Shown: positions 21,741 through 58,949, numbered from the stretch's first letter. The stretch: 64,000 nt of DNA from a virus (IMGVR_UViG_2939127364_000001), one strand, 5' to 3'. Notes: generated by a model not told the origin, from the letters alone. A program made the numbers and translations.

Positions 21741-21835
21741 GCGTTTTTCCTTTGTTTTCTAATGAGCGTTCAACTTCTTATATAAATATATCATTATCTA
21801 TCGTAAGTGGTTACTTATCATTAAGGCTGTTTTGT

Positions 21836-23944
21836 TCACTTTAAAATGATACGAGATAGTTCAGTAACTACAGATGAACCAAGACTATCAACGCTCGTTA
21901 CCAGGGCATGATTTGAGTAAAATCTCTCCGGTGCGTCAGTCATGATGCCAATTGCCATCAAATCAATGTCAGTCTGCGTTTCAATTTGCTTCGCAACCGA
22001 ACGCAAATGAGCGTCAAAACCTCTCCCAACAGCCCACGGCTCGCCATCGCTCAGAACAAGCATGATCTTCCTGTCCTCCATGCGACCGGAAAATAACGAT
22101 GCAAGGCTGGCTATGCTTTCACCATCCACGTTATTAAGAAGTGGGAATGTGTAGCCTACGCACCCCATACGTGAGCGAACTTCGCGAGAATTTACCTTTT
22201 CATTCCAATTTTTGATGATAGGTAGCATTAAAGATTCAAAGCGAGAGAACTCATACTTGACAGCCTTAAGTTCTCCTGCCGCCATATGACTACCAAATGT
22301 AGTGAAGCCGGTGATAATGTTGGGAACATTTATTCGATCAAGGGCATCGGCGATGGTATATGCACTTGCAAGAGCCAATTGTATCGTTATACCCCTCATT
22401 GAACCTGATAAATCAATCACTTGTTGAACACAGGCGTTAACGGCTTTAGATTCTTCTTTTTTACGAAACACGCGATCATCATTCATTGCTAATCTGTAGA
22501 TACTAGAACCATGAATGCGCCCCCGACGCTGGCCCGGTATAAACTGAACTCTGTTTCTGCTTGCTATTGCTCGCTCCAGGTCTTTTGCCAGCGTCGACGA
22601 AACACCTGACGAAAGATGCTTTTCAATATATTTGTCGAAGAGCTGGTTGCCTTCAGAAACGATGCGATAGCGGCTGATTGGACATCCTCCTAAATCAATA
22701 TCGGAGAATGTTTTAATAAGCCGTTTGATATGGGCTTCTGCCTGATCAATCGAGCCGATGAAGTCGTATGAGCGATTGTATGGCCTGTATTCGCTTTTCG
22801 AGCTTTCTGTTAACTCGCTTTTAATCGTTTCGGATAGAGCATCTTCTGTCATGCCTCCGACTTCATCTTCTATGCTATCCAGCTCCTCTAAAGCCTCTTC
22901 CAGACTCATTTTTGACGGAGTTGGAATATCTGAAGAGCCGTCTTCTGTCGTTTTTCTTTTTTCGTGGTCAGCGGTTAATGATTCTGACGCCGCGTTATCA
23001 GAAGCATCAGAATCTGATACCTCTTTATCATTTTCTGTATCATCGAATATTGTTTCTGATGATTCAGAATTATCTGAATCATCGCTGTCGTTATTATCAT
23101 GTTTGTGCTTACTGTGTGATTCTGATTTGATAGATTTGTGATTATCTAACGCTGAGGGTGTCTCATGATCTTCGTTGTCTTCATTGTTTTCTCCAGAGGC
23201 ATCCGTCTGGTCAGCGTCTGAAGGATCGGAAGTTTTTCCCGGAGCTGACTCCTTACCTTTGCTTTCACTTTCAGTGTCTTTGAGGATCTTAGCTATGGTC
23301 GCAGCCACCTTTACACAATCCTCGGTGCAAGACATGTTACGCACGGCCACATCGATACCATGTTCTTTTAATAATGAAATTGGTTTCTCAATGACAGGCC
23401 AATATTCATCCATGAAATCTACGAACGGTGCTTGGCCATCCCAGGCTCTTACAACCGGACAGAGAAAGAAGTTTAGAAAAAGCGCGCGCTGATCTTTGCC
23501 ACAATAAGCAATAGCCTCTGAAGCCTTTGGTTTAAAGACTTTTTCGATTATAAGGCGCTGAGTTGCCATCAGATTACGTCTTGTTCCGTTAAAGATCTGA
23601 CCCATTTTTCGCTCGATGAACACGTCTTCTAAGGCATTCCATAGCGACCAGGAAGGAACGCGTCCTTTTTCTCTCATTTTGTTGGACACACGAATATCGG
23701 TAAACAAAATGTGAGCAACCTCATGATCGAGAAATCCGCGCACAGCATTCATCAATGCCGGTGTTGCGTTATCCGGGATTGATGGGATGTTTACGAGAAT
23801 TGGCTCTCCATCATCGTTATAGCGTACATAAGCGTCGTCCCCTCGTTCTGCAACAGGGATGTTTTTACCTGAAAGGAGAGCGACTACTCGTTTTACACTG
23901 TCACGGAAGTCCTGAACCTCTTTGATGGAACGTTTTTTAGACAT
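21836..23944 (-). CDS. von Willebrand factor A domain protein (CobT-like) with long acidic linker
   Basis: 702 aa; C-terminal MIDAS motif VIDLSGSM; central D/E/S-rich low-complexity region. Confidence 0.6.
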   Translation of the reverse strand: MSKKRSIKEVQDFRDSVKRVVALLSGKNIPVAERGDDAYVRYNDDGEPILVNIPSIPDNATPALMNAVRGFLDHEVAHILFTDIRVSNKMREKGRVPSWSLWNALEDVFIERKMGQIFNGTRRNLMATQRLIIEKVFKPKASEAIAYCGKDQRALFLNFFLCPVVRAWDGQAPFVDFMDEYWPVIEKPISLLKEHGIDVAVRNMSCTEDCVKVAATIAKILKDTESESKGKESAPGKTSDPSDADQTDASGENNEDNEDHETPSALDNHKSIKSESHSKHKHDNNDSDDSDNSESSETIFDDTENDKEVSDSDASDNAASESLTADHEKRKTTEDGSSDIPTPSKMSLEEALEELDSIEDEVGGMTEDALSETIKSELTESSKSEYRPYNRSYDFIGSIDQAEAHIKRLIKTFSDIDLGGCPISRYRIVSEGNQLFDKYIEKHLSSGVSSTLAKDLERAIASRNRVQFIPGQRRGRIHGSSIYRLAMNDDRVFRKKEESKAVNACVQQVIDLSGSMRGITIQLALASAYTIADALDRINVPNIITGFTTFGSHMAAGELKAVKYEFSRFESLMLPIIKNWNEKVNSREVRSRMGCVGYTFPLLNNVDGESIASLASLFSGRMEDRKIMLVLSDGEPWAVGRGFDAHLRSVAKQIETQTDIDLMAIGIMTDAPERFYSNHALVTSVDSLGSSVVTELSRIILK

Positions 23945-24042
23945 GGCTAATCCTTTGTTATGAAAACAAATTATTTACTAGTGTGTTTAATGTAGCACTG
24001 CGCGAACAGGGAACTAAGCCATTCGCGCAGGGAGAAGAGGGG

Positions 24043-24255
24043 TTAACAGATTCTGACGGCTAAAGACCCGGAGCCGGTATTGAGAAGCGTGAAGCGTTTG
24101 TTGTTAAGTTCGAATATAAATCCAGTTGTGTCATTCACACCAACCTGAATCTGCTCATTCGGTAGATCGGTGAGGATGTCAGCTACACACTCATCAGCTA
24201 ATTTCTGTACGTGTCCGATCTCAAGAGCGATTAGGCTGGAAATAGTGGTGTTCAT
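24043..24255 (-). CDS. Hypothetical protein
   Basis: 70 aa ORF divergent from HTH regulator gene. Confidence 0.3.
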   Translation of the reverse strand: MNTTISSLIALEIGHVQKLADECVADILTDLPNEQIQVGVNDTTGFIFELNNKRFTLLNTGSGSLAVRIC

Positions 24256-24432
24256 TCAATCAATCCATTCTAACTTATACTATGGTAAGGAATACTACTA
24301 AAATTTGTATCAATACTGAATACATTCATATTATATGCAAGTTGATTTTCTTACCTGTTTTGGGTTAATTTTTCTCCGTGCAATGGCCTTTAACCGGTCT
24401 TTTAAGTGCCTATCGAAAAAAATGATAATAGC

Positions 24433-24475
24433 TTTACAACCCTAACCTTTGATGTAATATCGGTAAGCACTTACC
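24433..24475 (+). promoter_or_regulatory. Promoter (TTTACA-16-TAATAT) with downstream 14-bp palindromic operator GGTAAGCACTTACC
   Basis: -35 at 24433-24438, -10 at 24455-24460, palindrome at 24462-24475, ATG at 24507. Confidence 0.5.
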
Positions 24476-57794: not shown

Positions 57795-58075
57795 TCATCA
57801 ATCACTTCCATAGCGAAGGTGAAGATCTGCTGGAGTTGCGGAACAGTCAGTTTTTCAAGAACTTCGTCAGGTACTGAAGGGATAACCTTACGAACCAGAT
57901 CTGCATAAGCTGTCACTTGCTCAACAGGAGACATGTTCATGAGATCTTTGCCTTCCATCTGCTTGATGGAAACAAAGAGGCCGACGGTCATTTCAACGAT
58001 GGGATATTCTTTGCCACCAAATTTGATGCTTTTTTTCGGCGGCAGAATGGAGTCGAGATCGAGTAATTTGGTCAT
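57758..58075 (-). CDS. Tail assembly chaperone (lambda G-like)
   Basis: 105 aa acidic protein between major tail and tape measure genes. Confidence 0.65.
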   Translation of the reverse strand: MTKLLDLDSILPPKKSIKFGGKEYPIVEMTVGLFVSIKQMEGKDLMNMSPVEQVTAYADLVRKVIPSVPDEVLEKLTVPQLQQIFTFAMEVIDEENEKAAGEGAK

Positions 58076-58136
58076 GGTTTAAATCCTTTTAAACTCATAC
58101 AGAGGCCCATCCATGGGCCTCTTGGGTTATCACAAT

Positions 58137-58883
58137 TTAGCTTGCGGCAGTTACAGAGACGGCTTTGGTCGCCTTCTTGGCACCGTCATTAGTTGTGAAG
58201 GTGATATTGGCTGAACCGACAGCTTTACCAGTTACCAGTCCGTTCTGATCTACGGTCGCTTTATCAGTCGCATCAGAGCTCCACACGCCAGTCTTATTGG
58301 TTGCATCGGCCGGGGTGAAGGTTGCGCTCAATTGAACTTTAGTGCCCACTTTTACGGTCGGTGAAGACGGGGTCAGCGTGACGCTCTCAACCGGCTTTGG
58401 GAGGCTCATTTTCCCCAACACGCCAGCGTCGTCCGGGTAAGCGGAAAACTCAACTGAGAACACGCGAACGTCGTCAGACTGGTAGGTCATGGTGAAGTTA
58501 CCCGCGGTTGCTGCTTTAGGGATGGTCAGAACATAATCCGTCGCATCCTGCGGGGTCAGCACCAACTCTTTCGCAACGTCGATCAGGTTCACTCCCTGCG
58601 CAGACGTGATGGTTACGGTATCTTCGCCAGAACTCAGCGTGGAACCTGGCATCAGATCGACCATGTTTTTCAACACGGATTCAGCCAGCGGCGCAGTAAT
58701 GGTGATGTTGCGGCCCTGGATCAGCTCGGAGATCGTGGTCTGGCCCAGCTGGTCTACGGTCACTTTCAGCGTTTCGGTTGCGATTTCAACCTGAACACCA
58801 CCTTTGGTGTAACCCAAATCCACACCACCAAACGACACCTTACAGGCACCAAGTTTGATGTTTTTTACATGGGTATTAGACAT
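58137..58883 (-). CDS. Major tail protein with C-terminal Ig-like (Big_2-type) domain
   Basis: Start at ATG 58883 after AAAAGGAG RBS; C-terminal segment TPSSPTVKVGTKVQLSATFTPADATNKTGVWSSDATDKATVDQNGLVTG is Ig-like. Confidence 0.7.
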   Translation of the reverse strand: MSNTHVKNIKLGACKVSFGGVDLGYTKGGVQVEIATETLKVTVDQLGQTTISELIQGRNITITAPLAESVLKNMVDLMPGSTLSSGEDTVTITSAQGVNLIDVAKELVLTPQDATDYVLTIPKAATAGNFTMTYQSDDVRVFSVEFSAYPDDAGVLGKMSLPKPVESVTLTPSSPTVKVGTKVQLSATFTPADATNKTGVWSSDATDKATVDQNGLVTGKAVGSANITFTTNDGAKKATKAVSVTAAS

Positions 58884-58933
58884 TGATGGAAAACTCCTTT
58901 TTCCGTTAATTCTACGCATTCATTGCGCTAATA

Positions 58934-58949
58934 GTAAGTATATACTTAC
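58934..58949. promoter_or_regulatory. Perfect 16-bp palindrome GTAAGTATATACTTAC ~50 nt upstream of major tail gene
   Basis: Member of recurrent TAAGTA/TACTTA motif family; candidate -35 TTGAAT lies 16 nt upstream. Confidence 0.45.

What the first reader, a model, noticed from the sequence alone, without database searches (positions are those of the whole stretch)
21804..58949. Recurrent TAAGTA-N(0-6)-TACTTA palindromic motif in multiple promoter regions
Inverted TAAGTA/TACTTA half-sites occur at 21804-21817, 24462-24475 (GGTAAGCACTTACC), 28419-28436, 31778-31795, 39961-39970 and 58934-58949, with weaker copies near 10437, 35221, 45514, 52441 and 62518. Most lie just upstream of minus-strand operons (AAA ATPase, hypothetical 260-aa gene, holin, major tail) or next to the HTH regulator promoter. 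This pattern suggests a regulon operator or a phage-specific promoter element.
Basis: seen in the sequence. Interest (0 to 1): 0.55.

Follow-up and report, generated by a model that had tools for sequence, protein, structure and literature searches.

The report
Dispersed palindromic repressor-binding sites
An 18-base palindrome repeated about 15 times between the genes of this plasmid-like phage is most likely the binding site of the phage's own small repressor protein, which would keep nearly every lytic gene block silent while the phage persists as a plasmid.

Summary
All 11 cited sites exist and three or four more were missed. The window is an SSU5/Cyrano-type E. coli phage-plasmid. The variable spacing is only apparent: the element is one fixed-centre 18-bp palindrome, TARG-TAAG-TA-CTTA-CYTA, with symmetric flanks. 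A matrix trained only on relatives finds 15 window sites (0.8 expected), all intergenic and all in the phage backbone. Dyad symmetry, independently varying half-sites and variable register relative to -10-like elements point to a DNA site for a dimeric protein, not a promoter element or an RNA hairpin. In high-GC relatives a separate promoter word occurs with or without the palindrome. Phage-plasmids of six sampled lineages, from Enterobacterales to Acinetobacter and Rhizobiaceae, carry such dispersed palindromes. Each has a syntenic XRE-type HTH gene (window 24507-24893). The two lineages whose sites read TCAG instead of TAAG have Arg instead of Asn at the start of the recognition helix. The HTH gene tracks the backbone in about 930 resident plasmids but is absent from virulent phage SSU5, which keeps its sites, as mycobacteriophage D29 keeps its stoperators. 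Best reading: genome-wide operators of the lysogeny repressor. Binding and repression are untested.

The parts
10438..10455 (.). 18-bp palindromic site (minus-strand reading TATATAAGCACCTACTTA) upstream of a small membrane-protein gene that is truncated by an IS remnant
   Evidence: PWM 25.4 bits; orthologous to the SSU5 site at 55696
   Evidence: 27.0 bits; orthologous sites at SSU5 52176 and pJN2-26 99982
21800..21817 (.). site upstream of the AAA/CobS-like ATPase gene (20505-21740); a weak tandem copy lies at 21783-21800
   Evidence: 17.5 and 10.7 bits; fills the spacer of a sigma70-like match ATGATA-17-GATAAT
24460..24477 (.). site in the HTH/p70 divergent control region; its 14-bp core GGTAAGCACTTACC (24462-24475) is perfectly symmetric
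   Evidence: 14/18 match and 8.7 bits; the core is invariant apart from one central base across window, L009 and pJN2-26 although their HTH proteins are only 56-66% identical
24433..24460 (+). predicted promoter of the HTH gene: -35 TTTACA, 16-nt spacer, -10 TAATAT; the palindrome starts at the last base of the -10 and covers the expected start site
   Evidence: consensus scan; the TAATAT hexamer is invariant and the -35 is fully within the conserved TTGTAAAG block in the three-lineage alignment
24507..24893 (+). 128-aa XRE-type HTH protein (CYRAN_45 homologue), the candidate binder and lysogeny repressor
   Evidence: phrog_8 at E=1e-11; Pfam HTH_19 below its cut-off; profile hit to PDB 8bny 'Immunity repressor protein' at E=1.4e-5; AF2 model pLDDT 79.5 with recognition helix at residues 41-47; expressed in the Cyrano lysogen (PMC9928086)
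24043..24255 (-). 70-aa gene divergent from the HTH gene and first gene of the cobT-like/ATPase/dnaE operon; it travels with the HTH gene
   Evidence: orthologues in L009 and pJN2-26 but none in SSU5; the same layout in Acinetobacter plasmids and pMT1
28419..28436 (.). site (TAAGTATTTACTTACTTA) after the 96-aa gene, at the head of the tRNA-cluster region
   Evidence: 29.9 bits; overlaps the -35 of a sigma70-like match TTTACT-17-TAAAAT
   Evidence: 14.7 bits; orthologous to the SSU5 site at 39088
31778..31795 (.). site between the primase gene and the 260-aa gene
   Evidence: 21.9 bits; followed after 6 nt by TGTAAGAAT, an extended -10-like sequence; orthologues at SSU5 38179 and pJN2-26 79845
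35212..35229 (.). site immediately upstream of the 249-aa gene (34458-35207)
   Evidence: 14.2 bits; orthologues at SSU5 33601 and pJN2-26 74984
35329..35353 (.). weaker site in the same 273-bp divergent intergenic region
   Evidence: 13/18 match and 11.0 bits; conserved at SSU5 33474 and pJN2-26 74855
39957..39974 (.). site overlapping the stop codon of the 281-aa gene, upstream of the holin gene
   Evidence: 18.4 bits; followed after 18 nt by the conserved TGATATAAA
45514..45531 (.). site between the J-like tail gene and the tail-fibre gene
   Evidence: 27.6 bits; orthologous to the SSU5 site at 21938
52433..52450 (.). site between the tail M-like and L-like genes
   Evidence: 27.7 bits; fills the spacer of a sigma70-like match TAGATA-17-TATCAT
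58935..58952 (.). site upstream of the major-tail gene
   Evidence: 25.0 bits; a sigma70-like match TTGAAT-18-TATACT has its -10 inside the site
62510..62527 (.). site between the major capsid gene and the Ig-domain structural gene, followed directly by an intrinsic terminator
   Evidence: 15.0 bits; terminator GGGTGGGC..GCCCACCC TTTTT

Best explanation
The element is a fixed-centre 18-bp palindrome, TARGTAAGTACTTACYTA, with symmetric flanks (aATGA...TCATt). It serves as the operator of a dimeric, phage-encoded XRE-type HTH repressor, the 128-aa protein at 24507-24893. About 15 copies in this window, and 24-26 per 100 kb in complete relatives, lie in short intergenic gaps in front of nearly every early, replication, lysis and structural gene block. 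While the element lives as a low-copy plasmid, repressor dimers occupy these sites. Where a site overlaps a promoter (-35, spacer, -10 or start site) it blocks initiation. This includes the repressor's own promoter, giving negative autoregulation. Sites with no promoter nearby would act as roadblocks to read-through. Shown computationally: the existence of the motif, its symmetry, intergenic placement and conservation, its association and co-variation with the HTH family, and the distribution of the HTH gene. Inferred: physical binding, dimerisation, repression rather than activation, and any roadblock activity.
For: (1) The enrichment is far above chance and almost all sites are intergenic. 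(2) Symmetry extends into the flanks. Positions 3 and 16 vary independently, with A.C 13, G.T 11 and Fisher p=0.79, which fits two independently read DNA half-sites and not RNA pairing. (3) Sites are kept at orthologous intergenic positions in SSU5 (about 80% identity) and pJN2-26 (about 75%) while the flanks diverge. (4) The register relative to promoter-like elements varies: over the -35 (28419), filling the spacer (21800, 52433), over the -10 (58935), over the start site of the HTH promoter (24460), and about 18 nt upstream of an extended -10 (39957). (5) In high-GC relatives the promoter-like word GCTATA(A) occurs with or without the palindrome and on either side of it. (6) Every sampled phage-plasmid lineage with a homologue of the HTH gene has a dispersed palindrome of the same architecture. 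TAAG-type sites occur in E. coli, Klebsiella, Buttiauxella, Y. pestis pMT1 (7 matches against 0.02 expected), Photorhabdus, and the Shinella-like elements L015, L019 and L026. Acinetobacter pDD520 has TTAGTAAGCGCTTACTAT. A. baumannii CP155459 and L017 have TCAG-type sites. (7) The TCAG-type lineages have Arg at residue 39, in the turn leading into the recognition helix, where all TAAG-type phage-plasmids have Asn or Lys. The prediction made from P0072 (Arg39) was met in L017. (8) Sites sit at the HTH gene itself. The palindrome and the HTH promoter form the most conserved block of the control region. About three copies lie in the Acinetobacter control region. In a 62% GC chromosomal island the only TAAGTA in 20 kb lies right after the HTH homologue. 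(9) The HTH family resembles phage immunity repressors and dimeric XRE proteins. (10) In Cyrano lysogens the orthologue is one of the few genes expressed, and the other lysogeny-expressed genes present in the window (KacT, HicAB and ParE modules) have no site upstream (PMC9928086). (11) Per-genus counts of plasmids with the HTH gene and with the backbone helicase nearly coincide: Klebsiella 348/345, Escherichia 229/222, Acinetobacter 154/154, Enterobacter 92/91, Salmonella 49/49. The phage SSU5, described as virulent, lacks the integrase/HTH/p70 module.
Against: No binding or expression experiment exists. SSU5 keeps 26 good sites without any member of the HTH family. This is explained only by analogy with D29, and another binder or a second function is possible. 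The site next to the HTH gene is a weak match to the genome-wide matrix (8.7 bits). The Arg39/TCAG link probably reflects a single evolutionary event, because the three Arg39 proteins look like one clade. Asn39 homologues in three elements that are not phage-plasmids (L023, L025, L027) have no TAAG-type site. Several -35/-10-like matches at sites are built from the motif's own AT-rich sequence, so the overlap of 4 of 11 is not independent evidence. Pfam HTH_19 scores below its curated cut-off. Late-region sites such as 62510 have no recognisable promoter, so a roadblock role is conjecture.
Confidence: 0.62

Rival explanations
1. The palindrome is a DNA site for a dimeric protein, but not for the 128-aa HTH. 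The binder would be another conserved phage-plasmid protein, such as a master activator of lytic genes, a ParB/KorB-like silencer, the FljA-like regulator encoded outside the window, or a host factor.
For: SSU5 has no HTH128-family member yet keeps 26 sites. The site at the HTH gene is weak by PWM. SSU5 and pJN2-26 have a site right at the start of a ParB-like operon. The co-variation evidence rests on roughly one switch.
Against: The site type tracks the recognition-helix variant of the HTH family, and a prediction from it was met. In L022 the site accompanies the HTH gene outside a phage-plasmid. The conserved site sits on the HTH promoter. The HTH gene is near-universal in resident plasmids and missing only from the virulent phage. 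An activator bound in such varied registers is mechanistically unlikely.
Confidence: 0.22
2. The motif is a promoter element read directly by RNA polymerase, either by host sigma70 in place of a -35 or by a phage sigma factor or co-activator (as with the T4 MotA box TGCTTtA at -30). It would mark phage-specific transcription starts.
For: Sites lie upstream of genes. Several are followed after 5-6 nt by TGT-AAGAAT-like extended -10 sequences. In pDD520 the site abuts TATAAT. Distant relatives encode a sigma70-family protein. TGCTTA variants resemble a MotA box.
Against: The dyad symmetry includes the flanks. The same site precedes both early and late genes. The distance to -10-like elements is not fixed. 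In relatives the promoter word is separable from the palindrome. There is no sigma homologue in the window, SSU5 or pJN2-26. Some sites abut start codons or terminators and leave no room for a 5' UTR.
Confidence: 0.1
3. The palindrome acts as an RNA hairpin in the transcripts, as a terminator, a processing site or a stability element.
For: A perfect 18-mer could fold into a 7-bp stem with a GUAC loop. Sites lie between genes of long operons.
Against: The sequence is conserved, not the pairing. A.C combinations (13) are as frequent as G.U (11), and many sites break the inner pairs. There is no U-tract. Genuine structured hairpins with compensatory changes lie next to the sites, not in them.
Confidence: 0.03

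Closest known systems
Stoperators and operators of Cluster A mycobacteriophages (L5 gp71, TipsytheTRex repressor)
   Same: There are about 24-30 repressor sites dispersed through the genome, mainly in short intergenic gaps of both early and late regions. The consensus differs between related phages. A lytic derivative (D29) lost the repressor gene by a deletion of about 3.6 kb but keeps the sites, as SSU5 does here (PMC5712189; PMC9283540).
   Different: L5 sites are 13-bp, asymmetric, orientation-dependent and bound by a monomer with two DNA-binding domains. The sites here are 18-26-bp palindromes, and the candidate binder is a 128-aa single-HTH XRE protein that is not related by sequence. 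Block of elongation is shown for L5 and only conjectured here.
C1 repressor operators of phage-plasmid P1 (from my own knowledge; not tested here)
   Same: In a plasmid prophage, a single immunity repressor controls many operators scattered around the genome instead of one immunity region.
   Different: P1 operators are 17-bp and asymmetric (ATTGCTCTAATAAATTT), and C1 is a larger, unrelated protein. P1 late genes are controlled separately through Lpa-dependent late promoters, whereas here the same site precedes both early and late genes.
Lambdoid/434-type CI and Cro operators and other dimeric XRE proteins (C-proteins, HigA)
   Same: The sites are dyad-symmetric and 14-18 bp long. They are read by a helix-turn-helix dimer. 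The regulator gene is divergent from the first lytic gene, with a site on its own promoter. The fold and profile resemble 434/lambda repressors, C.AhdI, HigA and PDB 8bny 'Immunity repressor protein'.
   Different: Lambdoid operators are clustered at one or two control regions, whereas here they are genome-wide. There is no S24 peptidase domain for RecA-mediated cleavage, so induction must work in another way.
T4 MotA box of middle promoters
   Same: A short A/T-rich word with a GCTTA/ACTTA core lies near -30, upstream of a -10 element. The replication and recombination genes are T4-like (gp32, UvsX and UvsY homologues).
   Different: The MotA box is a 9-bp asymmetric element at a fixed distance from the -10. 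Here the site is palindromic and its register varies. MotA and AsiA homologues were not looked for.

Membership tests
Operator of a dimeric XRE/434-type HTH repressor | Dyad-symmetric DNA site with two equivalent half-sites | tested here: met
   The 18-bp palindrome has symmetric flanks, and the half-sites vary independently
Operator of a dimeric XRE/434-type HTH repressor | Cognate regulator gene nearby, with a site on its own promoter | tested here: met
   The site at 24460-24477 starts at the last base of the predicted -10 of the HTH gene. The block is conserved in three lineages. Several copies lie in the Acinetobacter control region
Operator of a dimeric XRE/434-type HTH repressor | The regulator has the XRE/Cro-CI HTH fold | tested here: inconclusive
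   Pfam HTH_19 scores 19.7 bits, below its cut-off of 30.2. phrog_8 matches at E=1e-11. The profile matches PDB 8bny at E=1.4e-5 and 434 Cro at E=0.009. The AF2 model has a five-helix core. Foldseek matches to C.AhdI, HigA and lambda cI reach TM 0.6-0.8 on the target, but all E-values are >0.001
Operator of a dimeric XRE/434-type HTH repressor | Site sequence co-varies with the recognition helix of the regulator | tested here: met
   Asn or Lys at residue 39 goes with TAAG-type sites and Arg39 with TCAG-type sites. The prediction for P0072/L017 was met. This is probably one evolutionary event
Operator of a dimeric XRE/434-type HTH repressor | Specific physical binding, as a dimer, with repression of the adjacent genes | not testable with these tools
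   Needs EMSA or footprinting, ChIP-seq and reporter assays
Stoperator system of Cluster A mycobacteriophages | Many repressor sites dispersed in short intergenic regions across early and late genes | tested here: met
   15 window sites; 26 in SSU5 and 24 in 100 kb of pJN2-26
Stoperator system of Cluster A mycobacteriophages | Asymmetric 13-bp site whose orientation follows the direction of transcription | tested here: not met
   The sites are palindromic and therefore have no orientation
Stoperator system of Cluster A mycobacteriophages | Monomeric repressor of about 183 aa with an HTH plus a 'stoperator' domain | tested here: not met
   The candidate is 128 aa with one HTH. The profile search of the PDB lists 8bny, 434 Cro and C-proteins, but no mycobacteriophage repressor among 19 matches at E<=1
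Stoperator system of Cluster A mycobacteriophages | Bound repressor stops elongating RNA polymerase | not testable with these tools
   Only suggested by sites that lack a promoter, such as 62510, which is followed by a terminator
Promoter element (sigma70 -35 substitute, phage sigma factor, or MotA-type) | Asymmetric element at a fixed distance from the -10 and the start site | tested here: not met
   The site is symmetric. The distance from the site end to -10-like elements ranges from overlap to about 18 nt in the window. In relatives the site lies from 40 nt downstream to 30 nt upstream of GCTATAA
Promoter element (sigma70 -35 substitute, phage sigma factor, or MotA-type) | A cognate sigma factor or co-activator is encoded by the element | tested here: not met
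   tblastn with the sigma proteins of pDD520 and Shinella finds nothing in the window, SSU5 or pJN2-26. MotA and AsiA were not searched
RNA hairpin (terminator or processing site) | Pairing is conserved through compensatory or wobble changes on the transcribed strand | tested here: not met
   A.C 13 against G.U 11 at pair 3/16; the inner pairs are often broken; there is no U-tract
P1 C1-type dispersed operators | Homologue of C1 and a 17-bp asymmetric operator | not tested
   The comparison is from memory only. The symmetry of the site already differs

The most novel reading that the evidence does not exclude
SSU5-supergroup phage-plasmids, from Enterobacterales (including Y. pestis pMT1-type plasmids) to Acinetobacter and Rhizobiaceae, share an ancient genome-wide silencing system. 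In it one small XRE-type dimer occupies about 25-30 palindromic sites and shuts down every lytic transcription unit, both at promoters and as roadblocks inside operons. Immunity specificity would be re-programmed by a single recognition-helix change (Asn39 to Arg) matched by an A-to-C change in every quartet of every site. Virulent phages such as SSU5 would arise by deleting the repressor module.
Probability: 0.4. Interest if true: 0.65.

Novelty: new variant of a known kind. Interest (0 to 1): 0.55.

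Why it matters
SSU5-type phage-plasmids are common: about 930-990 records in the plasmid collection carry the backbone and the HTH gene. They occur in clinical E. coli, Klebsiella, Enterobacter, Salmonella and Acinetobacter, and include Y. pestis pMT1. The literature describes them as carriers of resistance genes (PMC9600943). Their lysis-lysogeny control is essentially uncharacterised, and I found no paper that mentions this sequence. The analysis provides a concrete operator consensus, a candidate repressor and a predicted specificity-determining residue. 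Immunity groups, induction, curing and engineering of these elements therefore become directly testable. It would also extend the 'many dispersed repressor sites' strategy, known from mycobacteriophage L5 and from P1, to a symmetric, dimer-type system in Gram-negative hosts.

Tried and rejected
1. Treating the halves as independent sites with variable spacing. Rejected once the Klebsiella copies showed a single 18-bp frame.
2. Using the absence of the HTH gene from SSU5 as proof that it is not the binder. This was weakened because SSU5 is described as virulent, the HTH gene is near-universal in resident plasmids, and D29 is a precedent.
3. A positional profile of -10-like hexamers around the sites. 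It is confounded by the motif's own TA-rich sequence, for example TATCAT at positions 17-22, and was not used as evidence.
4. The RNA-hairpin reading. Rejected by the wobble-asymmetry test.
5. A phage sigma factor. One is present in Acinetobacter and Shinella relatives, but no homologue exists in the enterobacterial genomes.
6. Searching phage records for HTH homologues outside the SSU5 group. Only SSU5-like records were found, so this gave no independent test.
7. K. variicola plasmid CP133154. It is fragmentary and poorly annotated, so it was not analysed.
8. HTH homologues in chromosomal islands. L020 (Thr39), L021 (Ala39, Arg40), L023, L025 and L027 have no TAAG-type palindrome. Only L022 was informative.
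9. The MAFFT/RNAalifold run on the hairpin upstream of the tail L-like gene mis-aligned the Klebsiella sequence. Only the hairpin upstream of the major-tail gene is reported.
10. Literature searches for the sequence and for SSU5 regulation found nothing relevant.

Full report
**What the window is.** The window is a phage-plasmid of the SSU5 group. Bases 20000-44000 match Escherichia phage Cyrano (pLF82) at 97.6% identity and CMS-2020a at 96%. They match Salmonella phage SSU5 at about 80% and Klebsiella relatives at about 75%. From about 10.5 kb onward almost all genes are on the minus strand. They cover recombination, replication, a tRNA cluster, partition and toxin-antitoxin modules, lysis, tail and head functions. 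Bases 1-10 kb hold a Rep3-type replicon with iterons and IS-flanked cargo that includes a chaperone-usher fimbrial operon.

**Checking the observation.**
- The inverted hexamer pair with a gap of -2 to 8 occurs exactly 5 times against 0.06 in dinucleotide shuffles. At one mismatch or fewer it occurs 18 times against 1.6.
- The hexamers are not over-represented overall, but they are concentrated between genes: 24 copies in 6 kb of intergenic DNA against 16 in 58 kb of coding DNA (p=3e-15). This is the strongest intergenic enrichment of any hexamer. GATAAGTA/TACTTATC occurs 8 times against 0.
- An unseeded EM search of the intergenic regions returns the same motif first.

**What the element really is.** In Klebsiella phage pJN2-26 many copies are perfect or near-perfect 18-bp palindromes such as TAGGTAAGTACTTACCTA. 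The element is therefore one fixed-centre palindrome, TARG-TAAG-TA-CTTA-CYTA.
- On this template the window has 16 non-overlapping matches at >=13/18, 12 of them at >=14/18. About 0.75 matching windows at >=14/18 are expected. SSU5 has 26 at >=14/18 and the 100 kb of pJN2-26 I held has 24, each against about 0.3 expected.
- In the window, 15 of the 16 are intergenic, typically 6-40 nt after the stop codon of the upstream gene.
- The profile of 62 sites shows that the flanks are symmetric too (A at position 0 with T at 19, A at -3 with T at 22). The full element is thus a palindrome of about 24-26 bp, aATGA-18mer-TCATt. The TA steps at positions 1-2, 5-6, 9-10, 13-14 and 17-18 are the most informative.
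- A matrix trained only on SSU5 and pJN2-26 sites finds 15 hits at >=8 bits in the window (0.8 expected). None lies in the 1-10 kb cargo.

**DNA or RNA; promoter or protein site.** Positions 3 and 16 are R and Y, and they vary independently. The counts are G-C 13, A-T 13, A.C 13 and G.T 11 (Fisher p=0.79). An RNA hairpin on the sense strand would tolerate G.U but not A.C, so the constraint is on DNA half-sites that are read separately. This is what a protein dimer does.

A promoter element should be asymmetric and at a fixed distance from the -10. Here the register varies:
- The site overlaps a -35-like hexamer at 28419.
- It fills the spacer at 21800 and 52433.
- It contains the -10-like hexamer at 58935.
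- It lies on the start site of the HTH gene's predicted promoter at 24460.
- It lies 18 nt upstream of a conserved TGATATAAA at the holin gene.

In SSU5 and pJN2-26 some copies abut a start codon or a Shine-Dalgarno sequence, and some lie inside the 3' ends of genes.

One caution applies. Four of the 11 sigma70-like matches on the transcribed strand coincide with sites, although such matches are depleted overall (15 against 29.5, and 8 against 21). However, several of those hexamers are made from the motif itself, so I give this little weight.

The same site precedes both early and late genes, so it cannot define a temporal promoter class.

**Relatives separate the palindrome from the promoter.** Three high-GC phage-plasmids were examined: the Shinella plasmid L015 (60% GC), L019 and L026 (58% GC). 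All three carry the same AT-rich palindrome, ATAAGTAA-N4-TTACTTAT. TAAGTA/TACTTA occurs 8 times in intergenic against 0 in genic DNA in L019, and 13 against 1 in L026 (p=4e-15). They also carry a second intergenic word, GCTATA(A), which looks like the -10 of their promoters. That word occurs with or without the palindrome. The palindrome may lie upstream of it, abut it, or lie up to about 40 nt downstream of it. Some of these relatives and Acinetobacter pDD520 encode a sigma70-family protein between the MoxR-like ATPase and dnaE. The window, SSU5 and pJN2-26 have no homologue of it.

**Who binds.** The 128-aa protein at 24507-24893 is a weak but recognisable XRE-type HTH.
- Pfam HTH_19 is below its cut-off, and phrog_8 matches at E=1e-11.
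- A family profile matches PDB 8bny 'Immunity repressor protein' at E=1.4e-5 and 434 Cro at E=0.009.
- The AF2 model (pLDDT 79.5) has a five-helix core that resembles C-proteins, HigA and the lambda and 434 repressors. These are the closest folds, though all Foldseek E-values exceed 0.001.

Its homologues are found in about 994 plasmids. These include SSU5-like plasmids of Klebsiella, E. coli, Enterobacter, Salmonella and Citrobacter, Y. pestis pMT1, and Acinetobacter phage-plasmids of about 110 kb. A profile search extends the family to Rhizobiaceae, Rhodobacterales and Photorhabdus.

Every phage-plasmid lineage I sampled has a dispersed palindrome of the same architecture, but not always the same letters:

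| Lineage | Residues around position 39 | Site |
|---|---|---|
| E. coli, Klebsiella, Buttiauxella, pMT1 | YKNANN / YKNPNI | TAAG type |
| Photorhabdus | YEKANN | TAAG type |
| Shinella-like (L015, L019, L026) | FNNANF, FANPNF, FKNQNM | TAAG type |
| Acinetobacter pDD520 | I-NQNM | TTAGTAAGCGCTTACTAT |
| A. baumannii CP155459 | FKRPNV | TCAG-TCAG-TA-CTGA-CTGA (ACTGACT 16 intergenic vs 3 genic, p=1e-14) |

Residue 39 lies in the turn that leads into the recognition helix (residues 41-47). Arg in place of Asn there fits a change from an A:T to a C:G pair. I then predicted that P0072, an Arg39 protein from a 52% GC element, would sit among TCAG-type sites. It does: AATCAGT-N4-ACTGATT. The three Arg39 proteins look like one clade, so this is probably a single evolutionary switch.

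**Other links between gene and site.**
- In the control region between the HTH gene and the divergent 70-aa gene, the most conserved block is the palindrome plus the HTH promoter (-35 TTTACA, 16 nt, -10 TAATAT). This holds across window, Buttiauxella and Klebsiella, whose HTH proteins are only 56-66% identical while their integrases are 83-84% identical. The palindrome starts at the last base of the -10, the position for negative autoregulation.
- The Acinetobacter control region holds about three copies.
- In a 62% GC chromosomal island (L022) the only TAAGTA in 20 kb is TTAAGTAAacgcTGACTTATT, directly after the HTH homologue.
- Homologues in other elements that are not phage-plasmids (L020, L021, L023, L025, L027) have no such site, so Asn39 alone is not sufficient.

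**Repressor or activator.** In LF82 lysogens the Cyrano orthologue (CYRAN_45, 'putative repressor') is one of about 14 genes expressed above background, and Cyrano is induced by ciprofloxacin (PMC9928086). The other lysogeny-expressed genes that are present in the window (KacT/antitoxin, ParE and HicAB modules) have no site upstream. A factor that is present while the lytic genes are silent, and that binds in many registers, is a repressor.

The per-genus counts of plasmids with the HTH gene nearly equal those with the backbone helicase: Klebsiella 348/345, Escherichia 229/222, Acinetobacter 154/154, Enterobacter 92/91, Salmonella 49/49. Among the relatives examined, the one backbone without the gene is SSU5 itself, which a paper describes as virulent (PMC5427195 abstract). 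SSU5 lacks the integrase, the HTH gene and the 70-aa gene, and has no family member even at profile sensitivity. Yet it keeps 26 sites. This parallels mycobacteriophage D29, a lytic deletion derivative that lost its repressor gene but keeps well-conserved stoperators (PMC5712189). SSU5 also remains the main argument for another binder or a second function of the sites.

**Mechanism proposed.** Repressor dimers occupy about 25-30 palindromes per genome. Sites that overlap promoters block initiation, including at the repressor's own promoter. Sites with no promoter nearby, such as 62510, which is followed directly by an intrinsic terminator, may stop read-through. The protein has no peptidase domain, so induction probably needs an antirepressor or a similar factor. 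Binding, dimerisation, repression and roadblocking are all inferred. I put 0.85 on 'DNA site of a dimeric phage-encoded regulator' and 0.62 on the full statement with the 128-aa protein as a repressor.

**Comparison with known systems.** The closest functional analogue is the stoperator system of Cluster A mycobacteriophages. It has about 24 dispersed sites, a lineage-specific consensus, and sites kept in a repressor-less lytic derivative. It fails as a family assignment, because those sites are asymmetric and orientation-dependent and are bound by an unrelated two-domain monomer. P1 C1 operators (from memory) are the analogue in a phage-plasmid, but they are also asymmetric. At the protein-DNA level the system looks like a lambdoid/434 or C-protein type dimer on a palindromic operator, but it is spread genome-wide. 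I found no publication that mentions this sequence or the regulation of SSU5-type elements.

**Verdict.** The feature is real and strongly non-random. I read it as a new variant of a known kind: dispersed immunity-repressor operators, here symmetric and conserved across Proteobacterial phage-plasmids. Interest is moderate (0.55). It is not conceptually surprising, but it opens an uncharacterised and clinically widespread element family to direct tests.

Noticed in passing
window 1-1533: A Rep3-family replication initiator (1-1056) is followed by four iteron-like copies of TATCCACTGTAGTGAG at about 1090, 1130 and 1351 (direct) and 1518 (inverted). This was the second most enriched intergenic word set.
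   Followed up: partly
window 2080-10494: Cargo island inside the phage-plasmid: IS1 transposase, a chaperone-usher fimbrial operon (PapD-like 3385-4098, usher 4226-6712, fimbrial subunit 6718-7737), an IS3-family transposase (8016-9289), and an IS remnant in 10015-10494 that truncates the small membrane-protein gene behind the 10438 site. Y. pestis pMT1 carries the caf1 chaperone-usher operon right next to the homologous integrase/HTH module.
   Followed up: partly
window 58888-58928 (minus strand): Two hairpins lie between the 58935 site and the major-tail gene. In the first, a 5-bp stem at 58914-58928, 4 of 5 pairs show compensatory double changes among window, SSU5 and pJN2-26. The second, GGAAAA-AGGAG-TTTTCC, is invariant and holds the Shine-Dalgarno sequence in its loop. 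Similar hairpins follow the sites at 52433, 45514 and 39957. Some would sit at the predicted 5' end of the transcripts.
   Followed up: partly
window 20500-40400 and 44100-64000: Sigma70-type promoter-like matches are depleted in the phage backbone relative to shuffles: 15 against 29.5, and 8 against 21.
   Followed up: no
L014 10101-10766; L015 19762-20418; L026 14563-15207; L013 19397-20080; window 20299-20508: Distant relatives encode a sigma70-family protein between the MoxR/CbbQ-like ATPase and dnaE, followed by a protein with a Cys-rich N-terminus. The enterobacterial elements lack the sigma factor. At that position they have only a 69-aa ORF, which weakly resembles the Cys-rich N-terminus.
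   Followed up: partly
L015, L019, L026 intergenic regions: High-GC relatives have a second conserved intergenic word, GCTATA(A), at 7 copies against 0-1, and GAGAGAGA tracts just before start codons. These are probably their promoter -10 and ribosome-binding signals.
   Followed up: partly
L010 4030, 9158, 12635: A relative with 80% helicase identity has variant sites. The TA periodicity and the outer quartets are kept, but the inner quartets are altered (for example TAAC-TAGC-TA-ACTA-CCTA). Its HTH gene was outside the DNA I held.
   Followed up: no
SSU5 (L002) 41776-42761 compared with window 23945-26794: SSU5 lacks the block that holds the 70-aa gene, the HTH gene and the integrase. The glutaredoxin and 116-aa genes of the window also found no match in SSU5. 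This looks like a deletion that made the phage virulent.
   Followed up: partly
window 10495-12834: The RecA/UvsX-like ORF is 779 aa, as in Cyrano, against 358 aa for the SSU5 recombinase. It may contain an intein or another insertion.
   Followed up: no
window 35481-36248 (+): A GIY-YIG (LEM-3-like) protein is encoded against the direction of the surrounding genes, next to two palindrome sites. It may be a homing-endonuclease-type insertion.
   Followed up: no
SSU5 3545 and 43662; pJN2-26 42094 and 91933: A few good sites lie inside coding sequence, in the 3' end of the portal gene and within the cobT-like gene. They are conserved between SSU5 and pJN2-26.
   Followed up: no
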